From an uncultured Rikenellaceae bacterium (lineage in GTDB: Bacteria > Bacteroidota > Bacteroidia > Bacteroidales > VadinHA17), in assembly GCA_963802145.1 (NCBI GenBank), contig CAWDHN010000010.1, positions 844,230 to 908,229 on the forward strand: 64,000 bases of DNA. The letters run 5' to 3'. A program made the position numbers and the translations under genes. The notes under the pieces were generated by a model. It ran no database searches, was not told where the DNA came from, and saw nothing but the letters and a program-made list of their open reading frames with translations. Positions 45,047 through 63,614 of the stretch are shown piece by piece (position 1 is the stretch's first letter; the number at the start of each line of letters is the position of its first letter).

Positions 45047-45048
45047 GA

Positions 45049-45390: not shown

Positions 45391-45400
45391 CGCAGTCTCG

Positions 45401-50825: not shown

Positions 50826-51815
50826 ATGTACTACATAAGCATTAAGAAAGAAGATTGGCATCGTTCACTGGAAAAACTACTCACCTCCCATGACATTTTT
50901 GTTCCGGTGAAGGATGAATATAGCCTTGATTATGAGCCTTTCAGGCCGAATCAGGCTGAACATATTGCTTATAACACCCCCAAGCCTGCCACTCCGCTCA
51001 AGAATTTCTTTCTGCCCGTAAGGGAGAATGTGACTTCGGCCAGGAATACCGGCAGGCCAAGGATCATCATCGGTGTGCCCAACTGTGATGTTGAGGCTCT
51101 GGGGCTGCTTGACGAGATTTATATGGATGAGGAGTTCAACGATCCCTTTTACAGGAACCGCCGGGAAAGCACCATCCTTATATCTTCAGACTGCTACTCG
51201 GTGAATGATCACTGCCATTGTACCTCCTATGGTGTTAAGCCTTATTCGATGGCGAATGCAGACATGGCACTGCTATCGGATGGCGATGTTATTCATCTGA
51301 GGGTCATAACCGGACGCGGTGAAGAGTTTTCAAAGCAGTTAACCTCCGTCTTCGCCGGAGATGGCTCTGACCACCTCCGTTATGCAGAGAAGCGGCATCA
51401 GGAGGCTGAAGCCATGCTGGCTGACCGCAACAAAGGCCTTCCGGACTACAAGACCACGGGAGAGATCGTACAGAAGGCAGGTGCACGGATATGGGCAAAG
51501 TACGCATCGAAGTGCGTTTCGTGCGGTGCATGTACAACCATCTGCCCCACCTGCAGCTGCTTTCTCCTGATTGACAAGCCCGATTTTGCAAAAGTCAAGC
51601 AGATGGACGCCTGTCAGTACCCCGGGTTTGCCAGGGTTGCCGGAGGAGAGGATGCCCTTTTCCACCTTCCCGATCGTTTCAGGAACAGGTACATGTGCAA
51701 GTATGTATGGAAGCCTCAGAAATTCCATTCACTGGCATGCACTGGCTGCGGGAGGTGCATTGAGGCATGCATCGGCAAGATCAGCAAGAATGAACTGTTC
51801 ATGGAACTCATCTGA
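50826..51815 (+). CDS. 4Fe-4S protein of the AsrA / sulfhydrogenase beta (HyhB/HydB) type
   Basis: 329 aa with the Cys motifs CVSCGACTTICPTCSC and CTGCGRCIEAC. It is paired with an AsrB-type gene 8 nt downstream. Confidence 0.7.
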   Translation: MYYISIKKEDWHRSLEKLLTSHDIFVPVKDEYSLDYEPFRPNQAEHIAYNTPKPATPLKNFFLPVRENVTSARNTGRPRIIIGVPNCDVEALGLLDEIYMDEEFNDPFYRNRRESTILISSDCYSVNDHCHCTSYGVKPYSMANADMALLSDGDVIHLRVITGRGEEFSKQLTSVFAGDGSDHLRYAEKRHQEAEAMLADRNKGLPDYKTTGEIVQKAGARIWAKYASKCVSCGACTTICPTCSCFLLIDKPDFAKVKQMDACQYPGFARVAGGEDALFHLPDRFRNRYMCKYVWKPQKFHSLACTGCGRCIEACIGKISKNELFMELI

Positions 51816-51823
51816 CGATTCTT

Positions 51824-52651
51824 ATGGCCAGCTATGACAATAATATATATAAGCCTCTCAGGGCGACACTCGAAGAGGTGATTGATGAATCGCCCGTGAT
51901 CAAGACCTTCGTGCTGATCCCCGATGAAGAATTCGTCTTTAAAACCGGACAGTTCATTGAGCTCTCAGTTGAAGGCGTGGGCGAGGCACCCTTTACCCCT
52001 TCGTCGTCACCCCTGGTAACCGACAGGCTGGAGGTCACGGTCATGAAGACAGGTTATGTCACCGGCATCATGCATGAGCTTAAACCGGGTGCGGTGATGG
52101 GTATCAGGGGTCCTTACGGACGGGGTTACCCGGTCAGTGAGTTTGAAGGCAAAGAGGTGCTGATCCTTGGCGGAGGATGCGGCCTGGCTCCCATACGTTC
52201 ACTGCTCTACGCACTTGAACACATCAAGGATGACCTTGAGAAGGTGGTACTCTGCTATGGCTCGAAGACACCTGCCGATTGCATCTACAAGCCTCTGTTC
52301 ACCAGGCTGAACAGCATAGATAAATTTGAGGCCCACCGTACAGTGGACGTTACCGATGATGACTGGGACGGGCCTGTTGGCGTGGCCACCAAGCTGCTCG
52401 ACAGCGTAAAGGTGAATATAGACCGGTCGGTTGCCGTGGTATGCGGCCCGCCGATCATGATGAAGTTCGGTACGCTGAGGCTTCTGGAGATGGGCTACCG
52501 CGATGAACAGATATACCTCTCCATGGAAAAGAACATGTCGTGCGGCCTCGGCAAGTGCGGCCATTGCATGATGGGCGAATTTTTCGTCTGCAAAGACGGT
52601 CCGGTATTCACTTACAAGGAGTTAAAACATAATCCTGAAATCTGGAAATAA
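51824..52651 (+). CDS. FAD/NAD(P)-binding 2Fe-2S oxidoreductase of the AsrB / sulfhydrogenase gamma (HyhG/HydG) / PyrK type
   Basis: 275 aa. It has a flavin-binding barrel (APFTPSS), the nucleotide motif GGGCGLAP and a C-terminal 2Fe-2S motif (CGLGKCGHCMMGEFFVC). Confidence 0.8.
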   Translation: MASYDNNIYKPLRATLEEVIDESPVIKTFVLIPDEEFVFKTGQFIELSVEGVGEAPFTPSSSPLVTDRLEVTVMKTGYVTGIMHELKPGAVMGIRGPYGRGYPVSEFEGKEVLILGGGCGLAPIRSLLYALEHIKDDLEKVVLCYGSKTPADCIYKPLFTRLNSIDKFEAHRTVDVTDDDWDGPVGVATKLLDSVKVNIDRSVAVVCGPPIMMKFGTLRLLEMGYRDEQIYLSMEKNMSCGLGKCGHCMMGEFFVCKDGPVFTYKELKHNPEIWK

Positions 52652-52667
52652 CCTAAAGGGGAATGTC

Positions 52668-53123
52668 ATGAAGGTGGAAATTGATGATCTGAAACAAATC
52701 AGATTTTTTGAGAAGTTCTCTGATGAGCAGCTCGGAACCATTGCCCTGATCTCTTCCATCAGGGAGTTCAGGGTAAAGGAAATGATATTCGAACAGTATG
52801 ATGAGCTTTCAGAAGTATTCGTCCTGCTGTCCGGGTCCCTCTCGCTGGGTATCAGCCTGCCGAAGGAAAAGAGGATACACCTGGGAACCATTGAAGAGGG
52901 TCAGCTCTTTTCGTGGTCAGCTGTTTTCCCTCCCTTTATCTCCACAGCCTGGGTGATGGCCGTCACTCCGGCAAGGGTTATCGCCATCGATGCGAAAAAG
53001 CTCAACGCCGAAATAGAGCGCGACTGTGATTTCGGCTTCAAGACCATGTCAAAGATTGCCCAGACCATATCTCACCGCCTTAGCGATACCAGGTTCCAGC
53101 TTATGAACCAGCTGAGCCTATAG
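52668..53123 (+). CDS. stand-alone cyclic-nucleotide-binding (CAP effector) domain protein, no DNA-binding domain
   Basis: 151 aa. It has a beta-barrel cNMP-domain pattern (FFEKFSDEQL...GQLFSWSAV...RVIAIDAKKL) followed by one C-helix, then a stop. Confidence 0.65.
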   Translation: MKVEIDDLKQIRFFEKFSDEQLGTIALISSIREFRVKEMIFEQYDELSEVFVLLSGSLSLGISLPKEKRIHLGTIEEGQLFSWSAVFPPFISTAWVMAVTPARVIAIDAKKLNAEIERDCDFGFKTMSKIAQTISHRLSDTRFQLMNQLSL

Positions 53124-53135
53124 ACAGCATAAATC

Positions 53136-53627
53136 ATGAAGGTGCTCATTGATATGATAAAACTGAGGGAAGCCATGACGGCGGATGCGTCGTTAATACT
53201 TCCCGAGGGTCTCTGTTACAACTCTGCCAACACCAACGGCCTCAAGACCATACGTGAGCTTGCCACCTTCAGGTTCACCTGCCGCAGGTGCGAGGATGCC
53301 CCCTGCATCGGCGTCTGCCCGGCCGACGCCCTTGAAAAGGACCAGGAGGGGGTGGTCGTCCGCCACACCAACCTCTGCGTCTCATGTAAGTCATGCGTGA
53401 CAATCTGTCCCTTCGGAACGATGATGACCGATTTCTTCAGACATCACCGCAACAAAGACCTCTTTTATGATCTGTGTGACCATGAAGAGGCACGGAAGTT
53501 TGTTGCCGCATGCCCGCCGGGAACAGCGATGCTGACTGACCAGAACGAGAAGCCTGAAGAGCATATCTATAAACTGAATGAGAGGGTGCTCATAAGGGAA
53601 TACATATATACAACTGAAAACGAGTAA
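53136..53627 (+). CDS. HycB/CooF-type multi-cluster 4Fe-4S ferredoxin
   Basis: 163 aa with the motifs CRRCEDAPCIGVCP and CVSCKSCVTICP, plus a distal C...CP pair. Confidence 0.75.
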   Translation: MKVLIDMIKLREAMTADASLILPEGLCYNSANTNGLKTIRELATFRFTCRRCEDAPCIGVCPADALEKDQEGVVVRHTNLCVSCKSCVTICPFGTMMTDFFRHHRNKDLFYDLCDHEEARKFVAACPPGTAMLTDQNEKPEEHIYKLNERVLIREYIYTTENE

Positions 53628-53638
53628 AGAGAAAGGAT

Positions 53639-54568
53639 ATGGCGGTTAATCTTCTGTATTTCTTTGTTTTTCCGGGGTTGCTGTTCATGGCAGTGGCCGG
53701 AGCTTTTCTCTCATGGTTCGACCGGAAGATAACCGCCAGGGTTCAGTTCCGCAAGGGGCCTCCCCTGCTGCAGCCCTTCTGGGATTTCTTCAAGCTGCTG
53801 CTGGTCAAGGAGACTATCCTGCCAAAGAACGGATCGCATTCTGTCTTTCTCATTGCACCATTGCTGGCGGTATTCGGTGCCATCATGGCCGGAGTTTTTA
53901 TTCTCCTTCCGCTGTTCAATATCGGAACCGGATTCAGAGGCGATCTGATTGTCATATTCTACCTCCTCACCCTGCCATCGTTCTCCTACATAATAGGCTC
54001 ACTGGCTTCAGGCAATCCCCTGGCTGCCGTGGGGGCCTCACGCGAGATGAAGCTGATAATAAGCTATGAGCTGACCTTTCTCCTGTTGGTGGCGGCTGTA
54101 ATAATGAAGAGCGGGCAGCAGTTCGACCTCAGAAGCGTGATAGAAGCACAGCAGTCGGGCACACCGTTTATAGGCAGCATCTCCGGAGTCCTCCTATTCA
54201 TTGCCGGCATCTTCTGCATTCAGGCCAAGCTGGGTCTGGTGCCGTTTGACATGCCCGAAGCCGAGGCTGAGCTGGCTTCCGGCATTTACATCGAATATTC
54301 CGGCCCTCCCTACGCGATGATCAAACTGGCAAAGTACATAATGCTCTTTGTGCTGCCGGCATTCCTTGTCGCACTCCTCATGAACGGAATGAACCCGGGC
54401 ATAAACATTGTCTGGCTCATACTGAAGATCCTCGGCGTTGTGCTTCTCCTGACGCTTATCAGGAACACCAACCCGAGAGTGAAGATCAAGCAGGCCTCCG
54501 GCTTCTTTCTTATATGGATGAACCTGCTGGTTGTGATTGCCATTGTGCTGATTGCATTCGGATTATAA
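53639..54568 (+). CDS. group-4 hydrogenase membrane subunit (NuoH/HycD/MbhM-like)
   Basis: 309 aa with about 8 TM helices. The N-terminal signature is DRKITARVQFRKGPPLLQPFWDFFKLLLKE-like. Confidence 0.85.
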   Translation: MAVNLLYFFVFPGLLFMAVAGAFLSWFDRKITARVQFRKGPPLLQPFWDFFKLLLVKETILPKNGSHSVFLIAPLLAVFGAIMAGVFILLPLFNIGTGFRGDLIVIFYLLTLPSFSYIIGSLASGNPLAAVGASREMKLIISYELTFLLLVAAVIMKSGQQFDLRSVIEAQQSGTPFIGSISGVLLFIAGIFCIQAKLGLVPFDMPEAEAELASGIYIEYSGPPYAMIKLAKYIMLFVLPAFLVALLMNGMNPGINIVWLILKILGVVLLLTLIRNTNPRVKIKQASGFFLIWMNLLVVIAIVLIAFGL

Positions 54569-54579
54569 AATTACAGATC

Positions 54580-54993
54580 GTGGGTTTCAAGGATTATTGT
54601 TTCAGGAAATCACTCTGGGTCTTCCACTTCGGCGGGGCATCATGCAACAACTGTGATATCGAGATCCTTGACTGCCTGACGCCGAGACATGACCTTGAAC
54701 GCTTCGGCATATTGCTGGTGGGAAGCATCAGGCATGCCGACGTACTGCTGGTGAACGGATCCATCAACAGACGTGACAAGCCCAGGCTCCTGGAACTCTA
54801 TCATCAGGCACCCAAACCACTGCTGGTGGTTGCCATAGGCGCCTGCGGCTGCACCGGCGGGATCTTTGCCGAGGGGAACACCTTTGCCGGTCCCGTTGAC
54901 AAGATCATCCCGGTGGATGCATATATACCCGGATGCCCTCCAAAACCCGAGGCAATCATAGCGGGAATAGTTAAACTGGCGGGAAAAAAATAG
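54580..54993 (+). CDS. group-4 [NiFe] hydrogenase small subunit (NuoB/HycG/MbhJ-like)
   Basis: The GTG start at 54580 follows the upstream stop at 54568. Proximal-cluster Cys motifs are SCNNCDIE, GACGCTGG and GCPPKPEA. Confidence 0.85.
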   Translation: MGFKDYCFRKSLWVFHFGGASCNNCDIEILDCLTPRHDLERFGILLVGSIRHADVLLVNGSINRRDKPRLLELYHQAPKPLLVVAIGACGCTGGIFAEGNTFAGPVDKIIPVDAYIPGCPPKPEAIIAGIVKLAGKK

Positions 54994-55003
54994 TGACAAA
55001 CCT

Positions 55004-55441
55004 ATGGATACTGAGACAGCCATAAATAAACTGACGGAAAAATTCTACAGTGATACTGTCAAAGTGGTACTCCTTAAGGAGAAGCGCGGCATTGTCACAA
55101 TAAGGCCAACAGCCATCACCGGGATATCCGAATACCTTTATAAAAGCGAAGGCTACAGGTTCATCATAGCCTCTGCCCTTCATACAAGGCGAGGATTTGA
55201 GATCTACTACCACTTCAGTCGCGACGCTGAGGGGATGATACTCAGCCTGCATGTCATACTTGATAAGGAGAAACCCCGTATCAAATCACTCTCAAACATG
55301 TTCAGTGCATCAAACTGGATCGAGAGAGAGATGCATGAACTCTTCGGCATAGACTTCCTGGACCACCCCAACCAGGAGAAGCTGCTTTCAGAAGGCAACT
55401 GGGCAGACGATGTCTACCCCTACAGAAAAGAGTTCAAATAA
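55004..55441 (+). CDS. NuoC/MbhK-like 30 kDa-type subunit
   Basis: 145 aa with the motif WIEREMHELFGIDFLDHP. Confidence 0.8.
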   Translation: MDTETAINKLTEKFYSDTVKVVLLKEKRGIVTIRPTAITGISEYLYKSEGYRFIIASALHTRRGFEIYYHFSRDAEGMILSLHVILDKEKPRIKSLSNMFSASNWIEREMHELFGIDFLDHPNQEKLLSEGNWADDVYPYRKEFK

Positions 55442-55454
55442 TACTCTGACCACC

Positions 55455-56660
55455 ATGAGCAGAAAGACACTCATACCGATAGGACCCTATCACCCGCTGC
55501 AGGAAGAACCGGAGCTCTTCAAGCTCTATTGCGACGGTGAGATAGTCACGGATATCAAATGGGAGACCGGGTATAACCACAGGGGCATAGAAAAACTCAG
55601 TGAATCAAAGAGCTATGATCAGGTGTTCTTCCTCGTTGAACGCATCTGCGGCATCTGCTCAACATCACACCCCTTTGCCTTCGCCAACGCCGTTGAGGAG
55701 ATAGCCGGCGTTGAGATCACTGACCGGGCAAAGTACATCAGGTCTATCATCGGTGAGCTTGAACGCATACACAGTCATCTGCTCTGGGTAGGCCTCGCAG
55801 GCCATTTCCTCGGATATAACACCGTCTTCATGTGGGCCTGGAAATACCGTGAGCCTGTCCTTGACCTCTTCGAGATGATAACGGGCAACAGGAACAGCTA
55901 TGCCATGTTCAAGGTGGGAGGCGTGAGGCGTGATATTGAAAACAGCAAAATCCCCTCCATCAGGAAAGAGATGGGCATTATGCGGAAGAAAATCGACCTG
56001 CTGACAGGGGCAGTCATGGATGACCCGGTCATCCACGCAAGGACCAAAGGGGTAGGGATTCTCACCCGTGAGGATATTATCGACTATGGTGCCGTGGGCC
56101 CCACAGCAAGAGCCTCGGGTGTTGACATTGATGTCAGGAGAGATGACCCCTATGCAGCCTATCCTCTTGTCAACTGGAAGGTTATCACTGCCGGGGCCGG
56201 AGACGTCTTTGCCAAGGCAGAGGTGAGGCTTCTTGAGATGTACGAGTCGGCTTCGATTATTGAGCAGTGCATTGATGCCCTCGAAAAAATGAAGGAGGGC
56301 GATGTTGCACTTAAAATAAATGAGATACCCGAGGGTATCGGAACGGGACGTGCCGAAGCGCCCAGGGGCGAGGTCTTTCACTTTGTGGTCTCCGACGGAT
56401 CAAACTCACCTGCCCGTCATAAGATCAGGGCTCCGAGCTATACGAACATAGCAACATTCAAAAGATCATGCATAGGCCAGACAATAGCCGATGCAACTAT
56501 CACTCTCGCAGCCGTTGACCCGTGCTACTGCTGCACCGAGAGAATGGCAGCAGCCTATGACATCTCTTCAGGGAAAAAAATATTCAATGCCAATGAGCTG
56601 ATAGACCTTTCTATGAAGCGAACAAAAGAACTCAGGAAATCAGATGCCGGCCATGAATGA
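55455..56660 (+). CDS. group-4 [NiFe] hydrogenase large (catalytic) subunit (NuoD/MbhL/EchE-like)
   Basis: About 401 aa from MSRKTLIPIGPYHP. The N-terminal Ni-Fe motif is RICGICSTSH. The C-terminal motif is DPCYCCTER, followed by a 38-aa tail. Confidence 0.9.
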   Translation: MSRKTLIPIGPYHPLQEEPELFKLYCDGEIVTDIKWETGYNHRGIEKLSESKSYDQVFFLVERICGICSTSHPFAFANAVEEIAGVEITDRAKYIRSIIGELERIHSHLLWVGLAGHFLGYNTVFMWAWKYREPVLDLFEMITGNRNSYAMFKVGGVRRDIENSKIPSIRKEMGIMRKKIDLLTGAVMDDPVIHARTKGVGILTREDIIDYGAVGPTARASGVDIDVRRDDPYAAYPLVNWKVITAGAGDVFAKAEVRLLEMYESASIIEQCIDALEKMKEGDVALKINEIPEGIGTGRAEAPRGEVFHFVVSDGSNSPARHKIRAPSYTNIATFKRSCIGQTIADATITLAAVDPCYCCTERMAAAYDISSGKKIFNANELIDLSMKRTKELRKSDAGHE

Positions 56661-58554
56661 GCCTCTCGCCATATTAGCTGAACCATCTGCATGCTGGATG
56701 CTCCGGATGATTATTGTCATTCCGCTGGTTGCCGGGGTGCTCTTCCTTGCAATACCCGACAGATATCATACTGTAAAAGGGATTCTTGCGCTTGCAACAA
56801 CACTGGTTACCGGGTATCTGGCTGTCGCCCTTTTCTCCGCCTCCCCGCAGATGACGGCAGAAGGTGAGATGCTCAGCAGAAACTGCATGGCTCTCCTTAA
56901 TGCGGATCTCCTTCAGGATGCCGGAGAGTTTCTCACATTTACCCTTGACGGACTGAGCAAACTGATAATCCTCTTTATCAGTGCCCTTGCCCTGCTTATC
57001 CTGCTCTACACGCTTGTTTACAACAGGTTCCTCAGGGTTCCCAACTACTATCCCTGGTTCCTGATCACCCTGGGGTGTTCCTACGGGGCGGTGCTCTCTG
57101 ACAACCTGATACTCTTCGTTATCTTCTGGGGTATCCTGGGAATCACCCTGTACAAGCTGATACCGGGAAGGGATGAGAAAAGTTCAGCGGCCGCGAAGAA
57201 GACCATGATCATTATAGGAGCATCAGACACGATCATGCTCGTGGGTATCGCTCTTCTCTGGAGACTGACAGACACGCTGAGCATCAACGGCATATCACTG
57301 GAAACCAATAACATACTAACGGTTTCGGCGTTCATCGCACTGCTTGTCGGAAGCTTCACCAAGGCCGGCGCCTTCCCGTTCCACTCATGGGTACCCGACT
57401 ACTCCGAGACGGCCCCGGCATCGTCTGTGGCCCTTCTGCCCGCCTCGCTTGACAAGCTGCTAGGTATATATTTCCTGGCACGCCTCACGACCGATATCTT
57501 TATAATGACCGATGGTATCAAGCTCCTGCTGCTGACCGTCGGCGTGATCACCATCATCACTGCCGTGCTGATGGCGCTGATGCAGCACGACTGCAAGCGG
57601 CTGCTCGGCTATCATGCCGTATCACAGGTAGGTTACATGATAGTGGGCTTTGGTCTCGGTTCGCTCGTGGGCATAGCTGCAGGACTGTTTCACATGCTGA
57701 ACAACGCGATCTACAAGAGCGGCCTCTTCCTGAGCACAGGAGCAGTTGAACGGCAGACAGGAAAAAGTGATATCACGGAGCTGGGAGGCCTCTCAAAAGC
57801 GATGCCTGTAACATTCATTGCCTCTCTCATATTTGCCATGTCCATCTCCGGGGTGCCTCCCCTTAACGGCTTTGCATCGAAATGGATGATATACCAGGGC
57901 ATTATCGACTTCGGTGCAGGCGAGGGCATTGCATCAGGCCTCTGGATGGTCTGGCTCGGCCTGGCGGTACTTGGTTCGGCACTCACGCTGGCAAGCTTTG
58001 TGAAATTCATCGGAGGCATCTTCCTGGGAAGGAGAGAAAAGGCCATGGACAAAGTGAAAGAGGTGCCGGTAATGATGTGGCTCCCGATGGCGGTGCTGGC
58101 ACTCTTCTGTGTAATCTTCGGCGTCTTTGCAACCGAACTGGTGATTCCGAAACTCCTTATGCCCGCGACCGGGGCATTTACCTTCAACGGCCTCTGGAGC
58201 TCATCGTTAGTCTCTCTTCTTGTATTGATTTCCATCGTTCTCGGCCTGCTCATCTACCTCGCCACAGGAAAGAAGAAATTCAGGACGGAAGAGAACTTCA
58301 TCGGCGGTGAGAGCATGGAAAAGCTGGGAGCATCATACCCTGCTCCCGAGTTCTACAAGACCTTCACCGAGTTCAGCCTGTTCTCGCGTATCTATAAGAA
58401 GGCTGAAGGCAAAGCCTTTGACATCTATGACCTGTCAAAACAGGCTGTTCTCTGGCTCAGCGGAAGGCTGAGCAACGCTCATACGGGTGTGCTTCCCGGA
58501 TATGTTATCTGGGTCTGCGCCGGACTTATAATCATGTTGCTGATAATGATGTGA
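56644..58554 (+). CDS. antiporter-like subunit 1 (MrpA N-terminal part / NuoL / MbhH-like)
   Basis: 636 aa with at least 14 TM helices. It has the proton-conducting-membrane-transporter core (KAGAFPFHSWVPD, GYHAVSQVGYM). The start is either ATG 56644 or ATG 56653. Confidence 0.85.
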   Translation: MPAMNEPLAILAEPSACWMLRMIIVIPLVAGVLFLAIPDRYHTVKGILALATTLVTGYLAVALFSASPQMTAEGEMLSRNCMALLNADLLQDAGEFLTFTLDGLSKLIILFISALALLILLYTLVYNRFLRVPNYYPWFLITLGCSYGAVLSDNLILFVIFWGILGITLYKLIPGRDEKSSAAAKKTMIIIGASDTIMLVGIALLWRLTDTLSINGISLETNNILTVSAFIALLVGSFTKAGAFPFHSWVPDYSETAPASSVALLPASLDKLLGIYFLARLTTDIFIMTDGIKLLLLTVGVITIITAVLMALMQHDCKRLLGYHAVSQVGYMIVGFGLGSLVGIAAGLFHMLNNAIYKSGLFLSTGAVERQTGKSDITELGGLSKAMPVTFIASLIFAMSISGVPPLNGFASKWMIYQGIIDFGAGEGIASGLWMVWLGLAVLGSALTLASFVKFIGGIFLGRREKAMDKVKEVPVMMWLPMAVLALFCVIFGVFATELVIPKLLMPATGAFTFNGLWSSSLVSLLVLISIVLGLLIYLATGKKKFRTEENFIGGESMEKLGASYPAPEFYKTFTEFSLFSRIYKKAEGKAFDIYDLSKQAVLWLSGRLSNAHTGVLPGYVIWVCAGLIIMLLIMM

Positions 58555-58569
58555 CACAACAATAAGACA

Positions 58570-59112
58570 ATGGAACTGGCAATATCGGTTATAGTGGGAT
58601 TTATGATACTGGGGGCAATTTATGCCATCCATGCCAGGGATATTCTGTCGGCGGTGATAGCAGGAGGCATTGTCGGATACAGCCTGGTCATCTGTTTCCT
58701 GCTGCTGAAGGCACCTGACCTGGCAATAGTGCAGATTGTGGTGGAGACAATCACCCTGATCATCATGGTGGCAGTGGTGCTTGACAGCTCCCGGACGGAG
58801 GCTTACAGCAAGTTTGACACCCGTTCCTGGGTCACGGCAGGCACGACTGTACTGATACTGTTGATACTTTTCTGGTTTCTCAGGGAGGCCTCATCGTCGC
58901 TCGCACCATTCGGCGGGCACACCATGAGGATGGCTGACGCCTATGTCAACGGCGCAGTGGAGAAGACGGGCAGTGTCAACCTCGTTACCGGAGTGATCTT
59001 CGACTTCAGGGGATACGATACCCTCGGTGAGGCAACAGTGCTGGTGACGGCAGTGCTGGGGGTGCTGACTATATTGAGACTGAAAGGCAAAAAACAGGGA
59101 ATCAAGAGTTAA
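58570..59112 (+). CDS. MrpA C-terminal-like / MbhD-E-like membrane subunit (DUF4040 + MnhB-related segment)
   Basis: 180 aa. The TM helices are followed by [25 protein letters not shown], the MnhB-related signature. Confidence 0.7.
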
Positions 59113-59159: not shown

Positions 59160-59165
59160 AGCCTG

Positions 59166-59603
59166 ATGAAGGGAATGACCATCATAGTAAAAAAGACGAC
59201 ACAGCTGATTGCCGGGATAATATTCCTTTACGGCATCTATATAATACTGCACGGGCATCTTACTCCCGGTGGCGGATTTGCAGGAGGTGTGATACTCGCG
59301 GGGTCATTCATCCTCCTGATCCTGGCCTACGGAAGTGATTTCCTGCACCTGGTCAGGGAAGAGAGAGGCACAACCCTGTATGAGAACCTGGCGATACTGA
59401 TATTCCTTTTCCTGGCACTGACAGGACTTCTTGCCGGGGCGAAGATCTTCTTTACCAACTGGCTGCCTCACGGCACACCGGGGGAGCTGATCAGCGCGGG
59501 CTTTTTGCCTCTGTACAACATATTTGTAGGGATTGAGGTCGCTGCATCCATACTTACGATCTTCCTGGCACTGGTAATCTTTAAAGAGGAGGTACTGAAA
59601 TGA
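59166..59603 (+). CDS. MrpB/MnhB-like membrane subunit (MbhF-like)
   Basis: 145 aa with the motif GHLTPGGGFAGGVILAGSF and 4 TM helices. Confidence 0.75.
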   Translation: MKGMTIIVKKTTQLIAGIIFLYGIYIILHGHLTPGGGFAGGVILAGSFILLILAYGSDFLHLVREERGTTLYENLAILIFLFLALTGLLAGAKIFFTNWLPHGTPGELISAGFLPLYNIFVGIEVAASILTIFLALVIFKEEVLK

Positions 59604-59938
59604 CTGTTTACTGGCTCTGCTTCATACTGTTCCTGACGGGCCTCTATGGCGTAATAACCAGGCGGAACCTGATCAAGATAGCCATTTCACTGTCTGTCAT
59701 GGAGTTCAGCTGCTTTCTCTTCCTGGCACTGATAGGATACACCGAGGGAGGGGTCGCCCCGATAGTTGATGTGGCTGACCCTGTCAAAACCTATGTCGAT
59801 CCGCTTCCCCAGGCAATGGTTCTCACAGCCATTGTGATCGGACTGGCCACGACGGCGATGCTGATGGCGGTGATCATAAGGATCTACAGGAAATACGGAA
59901 CCTTTGACATAAGAGAGATAAAGAACTTAAGAGGGTAA
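59600..59938 (+). CDS. MrpC/MnhC/NuoK-like membrane subunit (MbhG-like)
   Basis: 112 aa with 3 TM helices. Its ATG overlaps the upstream stop by 4 nt (ATGA). Confidence 0.75.
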   Translation: MTVYWLCFILFLTGLYGVITRRNLIKIAISLSVMEFSCFLFLALIGYTEGGVAPIVDVADPVKTYVDPLPQAMVLTAIVIGLATTAMLMAVIIRIYRKYGTFDIREIKNLRG

Positions 59939-61480
59939 ATGATGAATCCGCTGATACCGCTCCTCGTTGCCGTACCCCTGGCCGGTGCGTTCCTGACAAT
60001 GATACTGGGCAGGTTCGTACCAGGTATCCCCAGGTATATGGCACTGGCAACACTGCTGTTCCTCGCTTTCATCAGCTTCTGGCTGCTGATTGCCGGAGGG
60101 GGCGCCTCATCAGTATATACCCTGGGAGGATGGGAGCCTGTTAACGGGGTTCCCATCGGCCTCTGCCTGGTTCACGACGGCTTCTCCGCCCTGGTACTGT
60201 GCATTATCAGCCTTATCGGCCTGCTCTCAGTCATCTACTCTTTCTCCTATATGGCCAGATACACCTCCGAAAACTACTTTTATTCACTCTTCTGCCTTAT
60301 GATCGCAGGCATGAACGGGGTTGTGCTCGGTGGTGACATATTCAATATTTTTGTATTCCTTGAGATATCGGCCATCTCATCCTATGCTCTTGTAGCATTC
60401 GGCGTGGAGAAGAATGAGCTTGAGGCAACGCTCAAATACCAGGTGCTGGGTGCGGTGGCCTCATTCATGATACTTTTTGCCATCGGGTTCATTTACTGGA
60501 GTGCAAAAACGCTGAATATCGCAGATATAAGGACCGTCTACAGCGAAGGAGATTATGGCAGTCATTACATTCTTGTCCAGATACTTCTTCTCACCGGCTT
60601 TGGCCTCAAGGCTGCCATAATACCGTTTCATGCATGGCTCCCCGATGCCCACTCGTCGGCTCCCTCCCCCATCTCGGCGATGCTCTCGGGGGTTCTTATC
60701 AAGGCAGTCGGCATCTATGTCATCATACGTCTCTTCTTCAATATGTTCGAGATAACCGAGGGGATGGCCATCCTGATAACCACCCTTGGCGCTCTCTCGA
60801 TGGCCGTCGGAGTCTTCCTGGCCATCGGCCAGTGGGATATTAAACGACTCCTTGCTTACCATAGCATCAGCCAGATGGGATACGTCATCATGTCGGTGGG
60901 AGTCGGGATGATACTCATCGCAAGAGGAATACGGACTGAGGTGGCGGCTCTTGCCATCACCGGCGGCATCTTTCATATGCTTAACCATGCGGCATTCAAG
61001 GGACTCCTTTTCCTCAACGCAGGGGCCATAGAGTATGCTGCCGGCACGCGTGACCTGAGGGAGATGGGCGGACTGGCCGGGAACATGCCTGTGACCTCGG
61101 CGACCTCATTCGCTGCCTCACTCTCAATTTCGGGTATCCCTCCCTTCAACGGCTTCTTCAGTAAACTGATAATAATAGTTGCGGCTGTGATGGGCCGCTT
61201 CTACCTCCTGGCCGCCCTGGCTGCCATTGTCAGCATCATCACCCTGGCTTCATTTATGAAATTCCAGCGCTACGCATTCTATAACAGTGAGCCCGGGAAA
61301 ATTAAGAATGCAGTCAAAGAGGTGCCTCTGCCGATGCTCCTGAGCATGATCACCCTGGCTGTCATCTGCCTGCTGCTCAGTCTGCTGGCGTTGCCCGGCA
61401 TTCGTGAAACAGTGCTCTCCCCGGCAACTGACATCCTGATGGACCAGATGAAATATTCCTCACACATAACCGGCCTGTGA
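59939..61480 (+). CDS. antiporter-like subunit 2 (MrpD/MnhD/NuoM-N-like)
   Basis: 513 aa with about 14 TM helices. Motifs are KAAIIPFHAWLPDAH and AYHSISQMGY. Confidence 0.85.
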   Translation: MMNPLIPLLVAVPLAGAFLTMILGRFVPGIPRYMALATLLFLAFISFWLLIAGGGASSVYTLGGWEPVNGVPIGLCLVHDGFSALVLCIISLIGLLSVIYSFSYMARYTSENYFYSLFCLMIAGMNGVVLGGDIFNIFVFLEISAISSYALVAFGVEKNELEATLKYQVLGAVASFMILFAIGFIYWSAKTLNIADIRTVYSEGDYGSHYILVQILLLTGFGLKAAIIPFHAWLPDAHSSAPSPISAMLSGVLIKAVGIYVIIRLFFNMFEITEGMAILITTLGALSMAVGVFLAIGQWDIKRLLAYHSISQMGYVIMSVGVGMILIARGIRTEVAALAITGGIFHMLNHAAFKGLLFLNAGAIEYAAGTRDLREMGGLAGNMPVTSATSFAASLSISGIPPFNGFFSKLIIIVAAVMGRFYLLAALAAIVSIITLASFMKFQRYAFYNSEPGKIKNAVKEVPLPMLLSMITLAVICLLLSLLALPGIRETVLSPATDILMDQMKYSSHITGL

Positions 61481-61481
61481 T

Positions 61482-61967
61482 ATGAGATATGTGGCAGTAT
61501 TTATATTATCAATGATCTTCTGGATCCTGATTACCTTCAGGTTCACAGTGGGGAACATGGCTGCGGGAGCCGTTGCTTCAGCTGTCACGACAGCCATCTT
61601 CAGCAGGTACTATTTCCATAATGTTTATAAGTTTCTGCAGCCACGGCGCTGGCTCTGGTTCATTGTCTATCTGACTACCTTCATATGGGCCTGCATAAAG
61701 GCGAACTTTGACGTTGCATACCGTGTCCTCCACCCGTCGATGCCGATAAGACCGGGGATAGTGAAGGTTAAAACCACACTCAGGTCAGAATTTGCCAGGA
61801 TGCTCCTTGCCAATTCGATAACCATGACCCCGGGGACCATCACCGTTGACATCATCGGCGACGAGATGTATATACACTGGATCTATATCCGGTCTGAAGA
61901 CCCGGCTGTATATACAAAAATGGTAACCGGAAGATTTGAGGAATACATTAAAAAATTTGCGGAATGA
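61482..61967 (+). CDS. MrpE/MnhE-like subunit (MbhA-like)
   Basis: 161 aa with two N-terminal TM helices and the segment ANSITMTPGT. Confidence 0.7.
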   Translation: MRYVAVFILSMIFWILITFRFTVGNMAAGAVASAVTTAIFSRYYFHNVYKFLQPRRWLWFIVYLTTFIWACIKANFDVAYRVLHPSMPIRPGIVKVKTTLRSEFARMLLANSITMTPGTITVDIIGDEMYIHWIYIRSEDPAVYTKMVTGRFEEYIKKFAE

Positions 61968-62230
61968 CCAGTGTCATGAATATCCTGCTCTACATACAGA
62001 TTGCCCTTTGCGCAGCCTGTCTCTACCGCATCATCAGGGGACCGACAATTCCTGACCGGATGGTGGGCATTGACATCTTCGGGATACTTGTTGTGGGCAT
62101 TTGCGGAATAATCTCGGTGCAGACCGGCAAGGCCTTCATACTGGATATCGGTATTGCCTGGGTCATACTAAGCTTTATCGGAACCCTTACGCTGGCAAAA
62201 TACCTCAGCGGGAAAAAACTGAATGAATGA
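61964..62230 (+). CDS. MrpF/MnhF-like subunit (MbhB-like)
   Basis: 88 aa with 3 TM helices. It overlaps the upstream gene by 4 nt. Confidence 0.7.
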   Translation: MTSVMNILLYIQIALCAACLYRIIRGPTIPDRMVGIDIFGILVVGICGIISVQTGKAFILDIGIAWVILSFIGTLTLAKYLSGKKLNE

Positions 62231-62549
62231 TATGGCAGCCATAATCTTAATATCGGTAGGAGTTCTCTTCAACATCTTCGGTTGCATAGGACTGATACGG
62301 CTTCCCGACATGTACAACAGGCTGCAGGCAGCCACGAAGTGTGTGACACTGGGATGCTGCAGCATCCTTCTGGGTGTTTTGGTGCATTACGGTTTCGGAA
62401 GTGCCGGCTTCAGAGCCCTGGTGGCAATACCGATACTCTTCTTTACCGCCACTGTGGCAGCACATGCCCTCGTCAGGGGAGCCTACCACTTCGGGACGAA
62501 AATGGACGACAGGAGTGTCAAAGATGACTACAGGGAGGAAGTGAGATGA
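62223..62549 (+). CDS. MrpG/MnhG-like subunit (MbhC-like)
   Basis: 108 aa with 3 TM helices and the motif RLPDMYNRLQAATK. It overlaps the upstream gene by 8 nt. Confidence 0.7.
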   Translation: MNDMAAIILISVGVLFNIFGCIGLIRLPDMYNRLQAATKCVTLGCCSILLGVLVHYGFGSAGFRALVAIPILFFTATVAAHALVRGAYHFGTKMDDRSVKDDYREEVR

Positions 62550-63166
62550 GGTACCCGAAACTGAGAGAGCTGAAAGAGGCGGTGATATCACTGGTCACCC
62601 CCGCATACACCTCAAAATTCCCTGTTGAGGAGCATGTGCCGTTCAAGGACTTCAGGGGAAAGCCCGTGGTTGACGATGTCAACTGCGTGGGGTGCGAGAC
62701 ATGTGCCAATGTGTGCCCCCCGCTGGCTATCACCTTCACCGATGACAGGGAGAAAAGGATCCGTACCATCAGGAGAGACTACGGCAAGTGCATCTTCTGC
62801 GGACAGTGCCAGGAGCATTGCATCACCGGAAAAGGCGTTAAGCTTTCCGACAAGATCTACGAAATGGCTGTCTTCGACAGGTCAAACAGCGTCGAATACC
62901 AGGAAAAGGAACTGCTGGTGTGCGAGAGCTGCGGCGCAGTCATAACAACAGTGGAGCACCTCAATTACATGCACCGCAAGCTCGGCCCGAAGGCCTTCGC
63001 CTCTGTACTGAACCTCAATATGCTTAACCTGAAGCTGCAGCTTGCCGAGGGGCAGGATCTTACGGCAGAGATAAGCGAGACCCTCCAGAGGAAGGATATG
63101 TTCAACATAATCTGTCCCAATTGCCTCAGACAGGTTACAGTCAAGTATCTTTTCAAAGGTGCCTGA
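62546..63166 (+). CDS. NuoI/MbhN/HycF-like 2x[4Fe-4S] subunit
   Basis: 206 aa with the motifs CVGCETCANVCP and CIFCGQCQEHC. It overlaps the upstream gene by 4 nt. Confidence 0.8.
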   Translation: MRYPKLRELKEAVISLVTPAYTSKFPVEEHVPFKDFRGKPVVDDVNCVGCETCANVCPPLAITFTDDREKRIRTIRRDYGKCIFCGQCQEHCITGKGVKLSDKIYEMAVFDRSNSVEYQEKELLVCESCGAVITTVEHLNYMHRKLGPKAFASVLNLNMLNLKLQLAEGQDLTAEISETLQRKDMFNIICPNCLRQVTVKYLFKGA

Positions 63167-63614
63167 AAAACTTAAAGAGCTCCTGTCGCGCCATGACCGT
63201 ACAATACTCTTTGTCGGCATCGGTAACGTGCTGAGAAGTGATGACGGGGCCGGCGTTTATGTGAGTACCCGGATAAGGGAGACTGAAAATATTAAAGTCA
63301 TCACCCCGGAGGTCAGCATCGAAAACTACATCGGAAAGATCAACTCCATTGATTATGACATTCTTATACTGATCGACTGCGTTGATATGAAGAGGCCGCC
63401 GGGCAGCATCGGGCTGATACCTGTTGAGGAGGTTAATGACCTGACCTTCAATACCCATAACATCTCACTTAAACGACTGTCTGAATTCTTCAGAAATGAG
63501 GTGCTGATACTCGCAATTCAGCCTGAAAATATTGCATTCGGAGAAAATTTATCGTATATTGTACTTGAAGCCTGTAACCAGATAATTGAACTAATTAATA
63601 AAAAGGAGGTATAA
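63159..63614 (+). CDS. hycI: [NiFe] hydrogenase maturation endopeptidase (HycI/HyaD family)
   Basis: 151 aa with a GTG start and the signature ILFVGIGNVLRSDDGAGVYV. Confidence 0.8.
   Translation: MPEKLKELLSRHDRTILFVGIGNVLRSDDGAGVYVSTRIRETENIKVITPEVSIENYIGKINSIDYDILILIDCVDMKRPPGSIGLIPVEEVNDLTFNTHNISLKRLSEFFRNEVLILAIQPENIAFGENLSYIVLEACNQIIELINKKEV

What the first reader, a model, noticed from the sequence alone, without database searches (positions are those of the whole stretch)
50826..63614. Mosaic Mrp-coupled group-4 [NiFe] hydrogenase operon fronted by an AsrAB/HyhBG-type NAD(P)H-FeS module
Seen in sequence: 18 same-strand genes are packed with gaps of 0-53 nt, and at least six junctions have overlapping start/stop codons.

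The genes fall into three modules that I know from different enzyme classes.
(1) An AsrA-like 4Fe-4S protein is paired with an AsrB-like FAD/NAD(P)/2Fe-2S protein. This is the beta/gamma diaphorase pair characteristic of soluble group 3b sulfhydrogenases and of anaerobic sulfite reductase.
(2) A HycB-type ferredoxin accompanies a group-4 catalytic core (NuoH, NuoB, NuoC and NuoD-like). Its NuoI-like subunit and HycI protease are displaced to the far end.
(3) A complete Mrp gene order is inserted between NuoD-like and NuoI-like: A (split into 636 + 180 aa), B, C, D, E, F, G. This gives two large antiporter-like subunits.

Established knowledge: the described group-4 complexes (Ech, Hyc/Hyf, Coo, Mbh) are fed by ferredoxin, formate or CO.

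Inference: physical linkage of a pyridine-nucleotide module to an ion-pumping membrane hydrogenase suggests a membrane-bound complex that couples NAD(P)H/H2 interconversion to an ion gradient. Alternatively it may be a new electron-input branch. I cannot tell without a database search whether this architecture has already been described.
Basis: partly seen in the sequence, partly recalled or inferred. Interest (0 to 1): 0.85.

Follow-up and report, generated by a model that had tools for sequence, protein, structure and literature searches.

The report
Hun-type membrane hydrogenase operon, Bacteroidales
This is a real, strongly conserved operon for a membrane-bound, ion-pumping nickel-iron hydrogenase with an NAD(P)H-type flavoprotein module, but the gene set was already published in 2021 as the uncharacterised "Hun" complex, so only its electron donor remains open.

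Summary
Nineteen co-directional, tightly packed genes (50826 to beyond 64000) encode three modules:
- an AsrA/AsrB-like (sulfhydrogenase beta/gamma-like) FeS-flavoprotein pair plus a HycB-like ferredoxin;
- a group-4 [NiFe] core (NuoH/B/C/D/I-like) with a HycI protease;
- a complete Mrp module with a split MrpA.

The order is kept in every one of about 58 Bacteroidales genomes with enough flank. It is also kept in Kosmotoga, Ignavibacterium-type and Bacillota loci.

It is not new. Glass et al. (bioRxiv 10.1101/536078) named this 16-subunit cluster "Hun", listed Bacteroidetes and Kosmotoga among its carriers, and reported the CGIC/CYCC large-subunit signature that the window carries. They proposed ferredoxin as donor and ran no biochemistry.

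The flavoprotein keeps invariant nucleotide-binding, FAD and 2Fe-2S motifs in 63 orthologues, and it aligns with the NADPH-binding gamma subunit of P. furiosus sulfhydrogenase I.

Additions here:
- two conserved Rex-type operators and a divergent rex-hyp-hydABC cluster;
- a patchy cNMP-domain gene between hunB and hunC;
- a conserved 137-aa zinc-ribbon gene after hycI;
- an Mrp-less relative.

Verdict: a new member of a known but biochemically untested kind, of moderate interest.

The parts
49980..50633 (-). rex: redox-sensing (NADH/NAD+) repressor, divergent from the operon. It heads a minus-strand run of hypF-C-D-E-A-B and hydC-B-A.
   Evidence: Pfam Put_DNA-bind_N plus CoA_binding. Present and divergent in all loci with enough upstream flank.
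50619..50634 (.). Rex-type palindrome 1 (CGTGAATTCCTTCACA), lying over the rex start codon.
   Evidence: Sequence. The equivalent TGTGA-N6-TCACA site is found at the same place in 55 of 55 loci, with at most 1 mismatch.
50806..50821 (.). Rex-type palindrome 2 (TGTGAATCTTCTCACA), ending 5 nt before the hunA ATG.
   Evidence: It is the only perfect TGTGA-N6-TCACA in the 64 kb window, against 0.06 expected. It is conserved about 16-24 nt upstream of hunA in 46 of 55 loci.
50826..51815 (+). hunA: AsrA / sulfhydrogenase-beta-like poly-[4Fe-4S] protein, 329 aa.
   Evidence: Fer4_22. NCBIfam ShyB, HydB and AsrA hits, all below cut-off. Full-length alignment to 9nez_B with the Cys ligands aligned.
51824..52651 (+). 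hunB: AsrB / sulfhydrogenase-gamma-like FAD, NAD(P) and [2Fe-2S] flavoprotein, 275 aa.
   Evidence: Pfam. 9nez_C, E 2e-50. GGGxGxAPxRS, CGPPxM and four Cys are invariant in 63 sequences; K/R is found in 63 of 63 at the position that is Arg in SHI gamma and Glu in PyrK.
52668..53123 (+). Accessory cNMP-binding-domain-only protein, 151 aa, with no DNA-binding domain. It lacks the canonical Arg of the phosphate-binding cassette (read by eye).
   Evidence: PF00027. Present in 31 of 60 related loci; otherwise hunB and hunC are 11-100 nt apart. Absent from the near-twin L001.
53136..53627 (+). hunC: HycB/HydN/CooF-like multi-[4Fe-4S] connector, 163 aa.
   Evidence: Fer4_11. NCBIfam HydN, AegA and DmsB-type hits.
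53639..54568 (+). hunD: NuoH / MbhM / HycD-like membrane subunit.
   Evidence: PF00146, E 9e-64.
54580..54993 (+). hunE: NuoB-like small subunit. The likely start is GTG 54580; the longest ORF starts at 54514.
   Evidence: PF01058. Alternative start. Orthologues are 137-143 aa.
55004..55441 (+). hunF: NuoC-like subunit.
   Evidence: PF00329.
55455..56660 (+). hunG: [NiFe] large subunit, 401 aa, with L1 RICGIC and L2 DPCYCC motifs and a C-terminal tail of about 36 aa for HycI cleavage.
   Evidence: CYCC is found in 120/120 and 118/119 homologues, but in only 3 of about 96 50%-identity representatives.
56644..58554 (+). hunH: MrpA N-terminal / NuoL-like antiporter subunit, 636 aa.
   Evidence: PF00361. 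NCBIfam aligns it to MrpA residues of about 2-526.
58570..59112 (+). hunI: MbhD plus MbhE, the equivalent of the MrpA C-terminal region.
   Evidence: PF13244 plus PF20501. Aligns to MrpA residues of about 600-800.
59166..59603 (+). hunJ: MnhB.
   Evidence: PF04039.
59600..59938 (+). hunK: MnhC / NuoK-like.
   Evidence: PF00420.
59939..61480 (+). hunL: MrpD-like antiporter subunit, 513 aa.
   Evidence: PF00361. Best PDB hits are MbhH 6cfw_H (E 7e-76) and MrpD 7qru_D.
61482..62549 (+). hunM, hunN and hunO: MnhE (61482-61967), MrpF (61964-62230) and MrpG (62223-62549).
   Evidence: PF01899, PF04066 and PF03334.
62546..63166 (+). hunP: NuoI/HycF-like 2x[4Fe-4S] subunit with a Cys-containing C-terminal extension.
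   Evidence: Fer4_7. NCBIfam HycF subfamily PRK12387.
63159..63614 (+). hycI: large-subunit C-terminal endopeptidase.
   Evidence: PF01750; TIGR00072 above its cut-off.
63616..64000 (+). 19th gene, cut by the window end. It is a conserved small protein with two CxxC motifs, 137 aa in L001, and matches no family.
   Evidence: Present after hycI in 58 of 58 loci. hhalign gives 93.8% probability, E 1.7e-7, against the 135-aa gene upstream of hunA in Kosmotoga.
44387..49953 (-). Context: hypF (frameshifted here), hypC, hypD, hypE, hypA and hypB, the [NiFe] maturation genes downstream of rex.
   Evidence: Pfam. hypA ORF 45049-45390. Frameshift.
40777..44296 (-). Context: hydC (NuoE-like), hydB (NuoF-like) and hydA, a trimeric [FeFe] hydrogenase of the NADH/ferredoxin type.
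   Evidence: Pfam.

Best explanation
What it is. This is a hun operon: an Mrp-linked, group-4 [NiFe] hydrogenase of the Hun type. Its peripheral arm is extended by a HycB-like connector (HunC) and by a pair homologous to sulfhydrogenase beta/gamma (HunA, HunB).

Proposed electron path (inferred from homology): NAD(P)H -> FAD and [2Fe-2S] of HunB -> the [4Fe-4S] clusters of HunA -> HunC -> the two clusters of HunP -> the proximal cluster of HunE -> the Ni-Fe site of HunG.

Proposed coupling (inferred). Turnover at the HunG/HunD interface is coupled to H+/Na+ movement through HunD and the Mrp module (HunH to HunO), as in P. furiosus MBH. NAD(P)H (about -320 mV) to H2 (-414 mV) is uphill at 1 bar H2 and near equilibrium at sediment H2 levels. 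The complex would therefore be reversible. It could spend ion-motive force to vent NAD(P)H as H2, or gain a little when H2 is very low or when H2 reduces NAD(P)+.

Regulation. In Bacteroidales the operon sits behind a Rex-type operator, so it would be switched on when NADH/NAD+ is high, together with hyp and hydABC.

Shown: gene content, motifs, conservation and the operator sites.
Inferred: physical assembly, donor identity, direction and ion specificity.
For: Membership in Hun.
- The gene order is identical to the Kosmotoga, Ignavibacterium-type and Bacillota loci and to the published description.
- The CGIC/CYCC signature is present.

NAD(P)H entry.
- HunB aligns with the NADPH-binding gamma subunit of sulfhydrogenase I (E 2e-50).
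- HunA aligns end to end with its beta subunit.
- The glycine-rich nucleotide motif, CGPPxM, the FAD-region motif and the 2Fe-2S cysteines are invariant in 63 orthologues spanning 67-93% identity plus Kosmotoga.
- A basic residue is found in 63 of 63 at the 2'-phosphate discriminator position.
- From my own knowledge, characterised relatives of HunB (SHI gamma, AsrB, PyrK, NfnA) all bind pyridine nucleotides.

One complex.
- hunA, hunB and hunC are contiguous with the core in 60 of 60 loci and across phyla. Overlapping stops and starts are seen in the window itself.
- The pair also accompanies an Mrp-less core.

Redox control.
- Two conserved TGTGA-N6-TCACA sites lie next to a conserved divergent rex.

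Maturation logic.
- A C-terminal tail on HunG, hycI and a hyp cluster are all present.
Against: - There is no biochemical or transcript evidence anywhere. The only published interpretation proposes ferredoxin.
- Every characterised group-4 hydrogenase uses ferredoxin, formate, CO or F420-type inputs. HunA and HunC are polyferredoxin-like and could accept ferredoxin directly.
- Rex also controls ferredoxin-dependent Ech hydrogenases in other anaerobes (own knowledge), so the operator does not identify the substrate.
- TGTGA-N6-TCACA is also the CRP/FNR-type consensus, and a full-length Crp-family regulator lies at 29977-30660.
- The organism already has a HydABC-type enzyme for NADH.
- In the Mrp-less relative no NAD_binding_1 hit is on record for the HunB-like protein.
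- hypF is frameshifted in this window, so this copy might not mature. An assembly error is equally possible.
Confidence: 0.5

Rival explanations
1. Ferredoxin-driven Hun, the published model. Reduced ferredoxin from pyruvate or 2-oxoacid oxidation donates to HunA/HunC. Electrons flow to the Ni-Fe site, and H2 evolution pumps H+/Na+ as in MBH. HunB is a structural or vestigial flavoprotein.
For: - Glass et al. propose this.
- HydDB lists group 4g as putatively ferredoxin-coupled.
- The closest solved relatives, MbhL and MbhH, belong to a ferredoxin-driven pump.
- Ferredoxin to H2 is exergonic and fits a full Mrp pump module.
Against: - It does not explain strict conservation of the NAD(P)-binding, FAD and 2Fe-2S motifs of HunB in 63 sequences and across phyla.
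- MBH and Ech accept ferredoxin directly at the NuoI-like subunit, so three extra subunits are not needed (own knowledge).
Confidence: 0.25
2. Dual-input or branched complex. Ferredoxin enters at HunA/HunC, and electrons go either to protons (H2) or, through HunB, to NAD(P)+. The complex would then act as a membrane-coupled ferredoxin/H2:NAD(P)+ oxidoreductase: a hydrogenase fused to a transhydrogenase-like valve, or a confurcating NAD(P)H plus ferredoxin to H2 enzyme.
For: - Both a nucleotide site and polyferredoxin surfaces are present.
- In some lineages a third input, a molybdopterin protein, sits between hunB and hunC, which shows that the arm is modular.
- Rnf lies next to the Mrp-less relative.
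Against: - The AsrB/PyrK-type flavoprotein is not the bifurcating site in known enzymes such as Nfn (own knowledge).
- No second flavoprotein is present.
- There are no data.
Confidence: 0.15
3. Formate-hydrogenlyase-like complex. Its formate dehydrogenase would be encoded elsewhere and would dock on the HycB-like HunC. HunA and HunB would serve a side reaction.
For: - HunC, HunP, hycI and the cleavable C-terminal tail are FHL-like.
- Saganbacterial and some other hun clusters carry an FdhH-like gene at the hunB/hunC junction.
Against: - No molybdopterin gene lies in the hunB/hunC gap of any of the 60 Bacteroidales loci examined or in the Kosmotoga, Ignavibacterium-type and Bacillota loci; none was found among the window ORFs scanned.
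Confidence: 0.05
4. hunA and hunB encode an independent soluble enzyme, for example a sulfite, sulfur or polysulfide reductase partner, that is merely co-located with an ordinary Mrp-Mbh.
For: - The best family hits are AsrA/AsrB and sulfhydrogenase beta/gamma. In the latter, sulfur reduction has been ascribed to these subunits (own knowledge).
Against: - No AsrC or other catalytic partner is in the operon.
- All family scores are far below the equivalog cut-offs.
- Adjacency is unbroken in 60 of 60 loci and in four phyla, with 8-16 nt gaps.
Confidence: 0.03

Closest known systems
Hun complex (Glass et al., bioRxiv 10.1101/536078, later Environ Microbiol 2021): a predicted 16-subunit respiratory hydrogenase of Atribacteria, Firmicutes, Omnitrophica, Elusimicrobia, Bacteroidetes MAGs and Kosmotoga.
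   Same: The gene set and order hunA to hunP are the same. HunA and HunB are AsrA/AsrB-like with no AsrC. HunC is an FeS protein. The HunG signature CGIC/CYCC is present. The Mrp-like module is complete. Bacteroidetes is a listed carrier phylum.
   Different: This Bacteroidales form adds a divergent rex with two operators, a patchy cNMP-domain gene at the hunB/hunC junction, hycI, and a conserved 137-aa zinc-ribbon gene downstream. My reading of the donor (NAD(P)H) differs from the authors' reading (ferredoxin). Neither has been tested.
P. furiosus membrane-bound hydrogenase MBH (group 4d, PDB 6CFW).
   Same: It is the best solved match for the large subunit (E 9e-85) and for the MrpD-like subunit (E 7e-76). 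Both have NuoB/C/D/H/I-like cores fused to Mrp-derived subunits. Ion-coupled H2 chemistry is expected in both.
   Different: MBH has 14 genes in the order mbhA to mbhN, a single large antiporter-like subunit, no HunABC, and takes ferredoxin directly. Here there are two antiporter-like subunits, a different order and three extra electron-input subunits.
P. furiosus soluble sulfhydrogenase I (group 3b, PDB 9NEZ).
   Same: The beta and gamma subunits are homologous to HunA and HunB over their full length, with cluster ligands and the nucleotide motif aligned.
   Different: The catalytic alpha and delta subunits are group 3 and soluble. Here the catalytic pair is group 4 (NuoD/NuoB-like) and membrane-bound.
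E. coli formate hydrogenlyase (Hyc, group 4a, PDB 7Z0S) and Thermococcus Mrp-linked Fdh/CODH hydrogenases (group 4b).
   Same: Shared features are a HycB-like connector, a HycF-like NuoI subunit, the HycI protease and a cleavable C-terminal tail. HycE is the second-best PDB hit, E 1e-77. Group 4b also carries a full Mrp module.
   Different: This operon has no formate dehydrogenase or CODH gene. NuoC and NuoD are separate genes. HunA and HunB take the place of the substrate dehydrogenase.
Saganbacteria RX5A Mrp-Mbh-type cluster (PMC6349859).
   Same: asrA-like, asrB-like and cooF-like genes lie next to a group-4 [NiFe] hydrogenase with Mrp subunits. The authors suggested that they form an oxidoreductase module.
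   Different: That cluster also carries an FdhH/NapA-like molybdopterin protein, which is absent here.

Membership tests
Hun complex (Glass et al.) | Sixteen genes in the order hunA to hunP: AsrA-like, AsrB-like, FeS protein, NuoH, NuoB, NuoC, NuoD, then the Mrp-like genes, then NuoI-like. | tested here: met
   The order is identical in the Kosmotoga locus L084-86, a genus the paper names as a carrier. My mapping of the letters A to P onto genes is inferred from the paper's text.
Hun complex (Glass et al.) | HunG metal-site motifs are CGIC and CYCC, rather than CGIC and CxxC with other residues. | tested here: met
   RICGIC and DPCYCC are in the window. CYCC is found in 120/120 and 118/119 homologues, against 3 of about 96 other group-4 representatives.
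Hun complex (Glass et al.) | HydDB assigns HunG to group 4g, distant from other 4g sequences. | not testable with these tools
   No HydDB classifier or labelled reference set was available. Indirect evidence: only two 50%-identity representatives exceed 50% identity (60% and 58%), and all others are at most 47%.
Hun complex (Glass et al.) | AsrC (the siroheme catalytic subunit) is absent from the operon. | tested here: met
   None of the 19 genes matches AsrC or a sulfite-reductase catalytic domain.
MBH, group 4d (P. furiosus type) | A 14-gene mbhA to mbhN layout with one antiporter-like subunit and no extra electron-input subunits. | tested here: not met
   There are two PF00361 subunits (636 and 513 aa), a different order and the additional HunABC.
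MBH, group 4d (P. furiosus type) | Ferredoxin is the direct donor. | not testable with these tools
   This needs enzyme assays.
Sulfhydrogenase, group 3b | Group-3 alpha and delta catalytic subunits, in a soluble heterotetramer. | tested here: not met
   The catalytic subunits match NuoD and NuoB families. The ShyA and HydA models score only 25-35 bits. Ten or more membrane subunits are present.
Sulfhydrogenase, group 3b | A beta (poly-FeS) and gamma (FAD/NAD(P)/2Fe-2S) diaphorase pair. | tested here: met
   9nez_B, E 2e-31 over the full length; 9nez_C, E 2e-50.
Anaerobic sulfite reductase AsrABC | An AsrC siroheme subunit is present, and AsrA and AsrB reach the equivalog scores. | tested here: not met
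   No AsrC is present. TIGR02910 scores 110.7 against a cut-off of 323, and TIGR02911 scores 199.9 against 288.6.
Formate hydrogenlyase (group 4a / 4b) | A formate dehydrogenase (or CODH) gene in the cluster feeds the HycB-like subunit. | tested here: not met
   No molybdopterin or CODH gene is in the operon or the hunB/hunC gap of 60 loci.
Rex regulon | A Rex operator (TTGTGAA-N4-TTCACAA type) lies in the promoter region, and rex is present. | tested here: inconclusive
   rex is adjacent, and two conserved TGTGA-N6-TCACA palindromes are present. Binding was not tested, and the core motif is shared with CRP/FNR-type sites.

The most novel reading that the evidence does not exclude
Hun would be the first pyridine-nucleotide-coupled energy-converting (group 4) hydrogenase: a reversible, ion-motive NAD(P)H:H+ oxidoreductase. 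It would let fermentative Bacteroidales, Ignavibacteria, Kosmotoga and Atribacteria vent NAD(P)H as H2 at the cost of ion-motive force, or harvest H2 into NAD(P)H while pumping ions. Control would come from Rex. Lineage-specific add-ons would tune it: a cNMP-domain protein at the hunB/hunC junction and a conserved small zinc-ribbon protein that is not among the 16 published subunits.
Probability: 0.45. Interest if true: 0.75.

Novelty: new member of a known kind. Interest (0 to 1): 0.45.

Why it matters
How strict fermenters reoxidise NADH to H2 is a standing question in anaerobic bioenergetics. The reaction is uphill except at very low H2. The known answers are electron-confurcating [FeFe] hydrogenases and Rnf working with ferredoxin-dependent hydrogenases.

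A membrane complex that wires an NAD(P)H flavoprotein straight into an ion-translocating [NiFe] hydrogenase would be a third answer. It would also be a close functional analogue of complex I with protons in place of quinone.

The cassette is common. Carriers span sediment, wetland and digester Bacteroidales plus at least three other phyla. The donor assignment therefore changes H2-budget models for many anoxic habitats.

Cultured carriers exist (Kosmotoga; a homologue is also labelled Ignavibacterium album), so the question is directly testable.

Tried and rejected
- Group 4d MBH membership: rejected on gene order, subunit count and the extra subunits.
- Independent AsrAB sulfite reductase: rejected. 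There is no AsrC, scores are sub-threshold, and synteny is unbroken.
- Recent local mosaic in Bacteroidales: rejected. The same 16-17 gene order occurs in Kosmotoga, Ignavibacterium-type and Bacillota loci.
- Sigma-70 promoter and intrinsic terminator scan of 50400-64000: not informative. It found 17 sites against 14.3 expected and 15 against 10.7 expected, with none at gene junctions. Bacteroidetes promoters are not covered by that scan.
The single-sequence AlphaFold model had pLDDT 46 and was discarded without a fold search.
- Literature searches aimed at Bacteroidales plus Mbh/Mrp/Rex, at group 4g plus Bacteroid*, and at Kosmotoga olearia hydrogenases found no dedicated description. The Hun paper surfaced only through the asrA/Mrp/Kosmotoga terms.
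- Checked and found irrelevant: the Caldithrix, Thermoprofundales, coal-fire and digester papers.
- HydDB classification could not be run.
- Five other group-4 representatives at 43-47% identity (P0245, P0246, P0248, P0249, P0251) were inspected. None showed asrAB, but three of those contigs were too short to judge.
- Only the open-access and bioRxiv library was searchable. The journal version of Glass et al. and subscription papers were not seen.

Full report
**1. The observation**

- Intergenic distances run from -55 to +53 nt, and seven junctions overlap.
- If the NuoB-like gene starts at GTG 54580 (137 aa, as in orthologues), six overlaps remain.

Pfam, NCBIfam and PDB sequence searches confirm every assignment.
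- g01 is an AsrA/sulfhydrogenase-beta-like poly-FeS protein.
- g02 is an AsrB/sulfhydrogenase-gamma-like FAD/NAD(P)/2Fe-2S flavoprotein.
- g04 is a HycB/HydN-like ferredoxin.
- g05 to g08 are NuoH-, NuoB-, NuoC- and NuoD-like proteins.
- g09 is the N-terminal part of MrpA.
- g10 matches MbhD plus MbhE and aligns to residues of about 600-800 of full-length MrpA.
- g11 to g16 are MnhB, C, D, E, F and G.
- g17 is a NuoI/HycF-like subunit, and g18 is a HycI endopeptidase.

The large subunit has both Ni-Fe binding motifs, RICGIC and DPCYCC. It also has a C-terminal tail of about 36 residues, of the kind HycI removes. It is therefore a hydrogenase, not an Mbx/Ehr-type relative.

Two things were missed.
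- The third gene (52668-53123) is a stand-alone cNMP-binding-domain protein.
- A 19th gene starts at 63616, one base after the hycI stop, and runs off the window.

**2. Conservation**

The window comes from an uncultured Bacteroidales bacterium.
- The large subunit is 99% identical to that of a Salar de Ascotan sediment MAG (L001).
- The two operons are only about 89-92% identical at DNA level.

The best 80 are all Bacteroidales/Bacteroidota MAGs at 81-99% identity.

tblastn with all window proteins shows that every locus with enough flank carries the same genes in the same orientation: a divergent rex, then asrA-like through hycI. AsrA-like identity falls to 51%. The 19th gene follows hycI in 58 of 58 loci.

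The cNMP-domain gene is present in only 31 of 60 loci. Elsewhere the flanking genes are 11-100 nt apart. It is absent from L001, where the difference is a clean 483-bp indel.

**3. Beyond Bacteroidales**

A search of 50%-identity representatives found only two proteins above 50% identity (60% and 58%). Everything else is at most 47%.

The 58% protein is from Kosmotoga sp.. Its locus has the same order: asrA-like, asrB-like, hycB-like, nuoH, B, C, D, mrpA-N, mbhDE, mnhB, C, D, E, F, G, nuoI-like and hycI, followed by hypF, C, D. It has no rex.

Relatives of the Kosmotoga protein are labelled Thermotogae, Petrotogales, Ignavibacterium album, Ignavibacteriaceae, KSB1, Marinimicrobia/Fidelibacterota and Bacillota. 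An Ignavibacterium-type locus and a Bacillota MAG locus show the same order.

A 45%-identical relative (L087) comes from an organism with type-IX secretion genes and lies next to rnf. It has asrA-asrB-hycB-nuoHBCD followed directly by nuoI, with no Mrp genes.
- It also shows that the AsrAB/HycB arm is tied to this hydrogenase lineage independently of Mrp.

Five other representatives at 43-47% identity showed other layouts or sat on contigs too short to judge.

**4. Prior description**

The architecture is already in the literature. Glass et al. [quoted passage not shown]
- It was found in Atribacteria and Firmicutes MAGs, in Omnitrophica, Elusimicrobia and Bacteroidetes MAGs, and in Kosmotoga isolates.
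- HunA and HunB are AsrA/AsrB-like, with AsrC missing.
- HunC passes electrons on.
- HunEFGP form the Ni-Fe module. HunG was classed by HydDB as group 4g but is distant from other 4g sequences.
- HunG carries CGIC/CYCC where other group-4 enzymes have CGIC/CxxC.
- HunDHILK and HunIJKLMNO are the proton and Mrp-like sodium modules.
- Some MAGs have a molybdopterin protein between HunB and HunC.
- The authors propose ferredoxin as donor.

The window matches on every testable point.
- CYCC is present in 120 of 120 Bacteroidales homologues and 118 of 119 Kosmotoga-type homologues.
- It is present in only 3 of about 96 other group-4 representatives with a detectable motif.

Independently, Matheus Carnevali et al. 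(PMC6349859) noted asrA-like, asrB-like and cooF-like genes beside an Mrp-Mbh-type hydrogenase and an FdhH-like gene in Saganbacteria. They suggested these form an oxidoreductase module.

No other paper in the searchable library uses the Hun name or reports biochemistry. HydDB itself lists group 4g as of undetermined role.

**5. How it most likely works**

The peripheral arm looks like that of formate hydrogenlyase, with the formate dehydrogenase replaced by a sulfhydrogenase-type diaphorase.
- FHL-like features are the HycB-like and HycF-like subunits, HycI and the cleavable tail.
- HunA aligns over its whole length with sulfhydrogenase I beta, with the cysteine ligands in register.
- HunB aligns with sulfhydrogenase I gamma at E 2e-50.

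Across 63 HunB orthologues several features are invariant: the GEAPFTPSS region, GGGxGxAPxRS, CGPPxM and the four 2Fe-2S cysteines. The residue after the second strand of the nucleotide fold is Lys or Arg in all 63. It is Arg in the NADPH-preferring SHI gamma and Glu in NAD-dependent PyrK.

Such purifying selection on a nucleotide site is hard to reconcile with a ferredoxin-only role. I therefore favour NAD(P)H, possibly NADP(H) or both, as a physiological partner.

The proposed path runs from NAD(P)H through FAD and 2Fe-2S (HunB), the HunA clusters, HunC, HunP and HunE to Ni-Fe (HunG). Turnover would be coupled to H+/Na+ movement through HunD and the Mrp module, by analogy with MBH. Its MbhL and MbhH are the best solved matches.

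By standard potentials (own knowledge) the reaction is uphill at 1 bar H2 and near equilibrium at sediment H2 levels. The complex is therefore expected to be reversible, and the ion gradient would set the direction.

All of this path is inference. Assembly, donor, direction and ion specificity are untested.

**6. Regulation and context**

A rex gene (49980-50633, minus strand) is divergent from hunA. The 192-bp intergenic region holds two TGTGA-N6-TCACA palindromes.
- 50806-50821 is the only perfect instance in the 64 kb window, against 0.06 expected. It ends 5 nt before the hunA ATG.
- 50619-50634 has one mismatch and lies over the rex start.
- The rex-proximal site is kept in 55 of 55 related loci. 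The hunA-proximal site is kept in 46 of 55.

Downstream of rex on the minus strand lie hypF, C, D, E, A, B and a trimeric [FeFe] hydrogenase, with NuoE-like, NuoF-like and HydA subunits. The locus is thus a Rex-flanked hydrogen-metabolism island.

Three caveats apply.
- Rex also governs ferredoxin-dependent hydrogenases in other anaerobes (own knowledge).
- The core motif equals the CRP/FNR consensus.
- A Crp-family regulator lies at 29977-30660.

The sites therefore argue for redox control, not for NADH as substrate.

**7. What is added to the published picture**

- The Rex link is seen in Bacteroidales. It is absent from the Kosmotoga, Ignavibacterium-type and Bacillota loci.
- The hunB/hunC junction is a hot spot for accessory genes: the cNMP-domain gene here in half the genomes, and a molybdopterin protein elsewhere.
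- A small protein with two CxxC motifs accompanies the cassette. It follows hycI in Bacteroidales. Its homologue (hhalign probability 93.8%, E 1.7e-7) sits upstream of hunA in Kosmotoga. It has no Pfam or NCBIfam family.
- An Mrp-less relative carries the same input arm.

**8. Verdict**

The locus is a new member of a known, named but biochemically uncharacterised kind.

The open point is the electron donor. Interest is moderate (0.45). It would be high if NAD(P)H coupling were shown.

Noticed in passing
window 47709-49953 (minus strand), near 48698: hypF is split into two overlapping ORFs in different frames. Against the intact L001 gene, the window has one extra T (GATATTAAAAAA against GATATAAAAAA). 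This is either an assembly error or a broken maturation gene, which would leave the [NiFe] enzyme without its CN ligands.
   Followed up: partly
window 40777-44296 (minus strand): A trimeric [FeFe] hydrogenase (NuoE-like 180 aa, NuoF-like 386 aa, HydA 593 aa) lies directly downstream of the hyp genes, on the rex strand. The genome therefore already has a putative NADH/ferredoxin-dependent H2 enzyme next to hun.
   Followed up: partly
window 63616-64000; L001:18198-18611; L084:4988-5395: A conserved small protein of 135-137 aa with two CxxC motifs and no family match accompanies hun clusters. It lies downstream of hycI in 58 of 58 Bacteroidales loci and upstream of hunA in Kosmotoga. It is not among the 16 named Hun subunits.
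   Followed up: partly
window 52652-53134: The cNMP-domain gene is a clean 483-bp presence/absence polymorphism between this window and L001, and it is present in 31 of 60 loci. By eye its phosphate-binding cassette lacks the usual Arg, so the ligand may not be a cyclic nucleotide.
   Followed up: partly
window 56584-58383 (hunH): DNA identity to L001 drops to 72-84% across hunH, while the flanking genes are 92-95% identical. The protein is 82% identical, against 98% for the neighbours. This suggests allelic replacement by recombination inside the operon.
   Followed up: partly
L087:5808-12011: A relative of the cluster has asrA-asrB-hycB-nuoHBCD-nuoI with no Mrp or any antiporter-like subunit. 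Its large subunit has CTGC instead of CYCC. It lies next to rnf genes in an organism with PorV/T9SS genes. No NAD_binding_1 hit is on record for its AsrB-like protein.
   Followed up: no
L092:96-9431: Another group-4 cluster (large subunit 43% identical) has a HycB-like gene, a malic enzyme and a CCG-domain (Hdr-like) protein directly upstream of its NuoL/C/D/H/I/B genes. This is a possible different electron-input arrangement.
   Followed up: no
window 37455-40573 (minus strand): A Na+:alanine symporter and an SNF-family Na+ symporter sit immediately downstream of hydA. This is consistent with a sodium-based membrane economy in this amino-acid-using Bacteroidales.
   Followed up: no
window 3539-8645: Three consecutive paralogous genes (705, 431 and 548 aa) carry PD40 beta-propeller repeats, and the first also has TPR repeats. 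Their function is unknown.
   Followed up: no
L001 about 17038-17130: L001 has about 92 bp more than the window at the hunO/hunP junction, and its longest hunP ORF starts differently. The cause could be an indel or an assembly difference.
   Followed up: no
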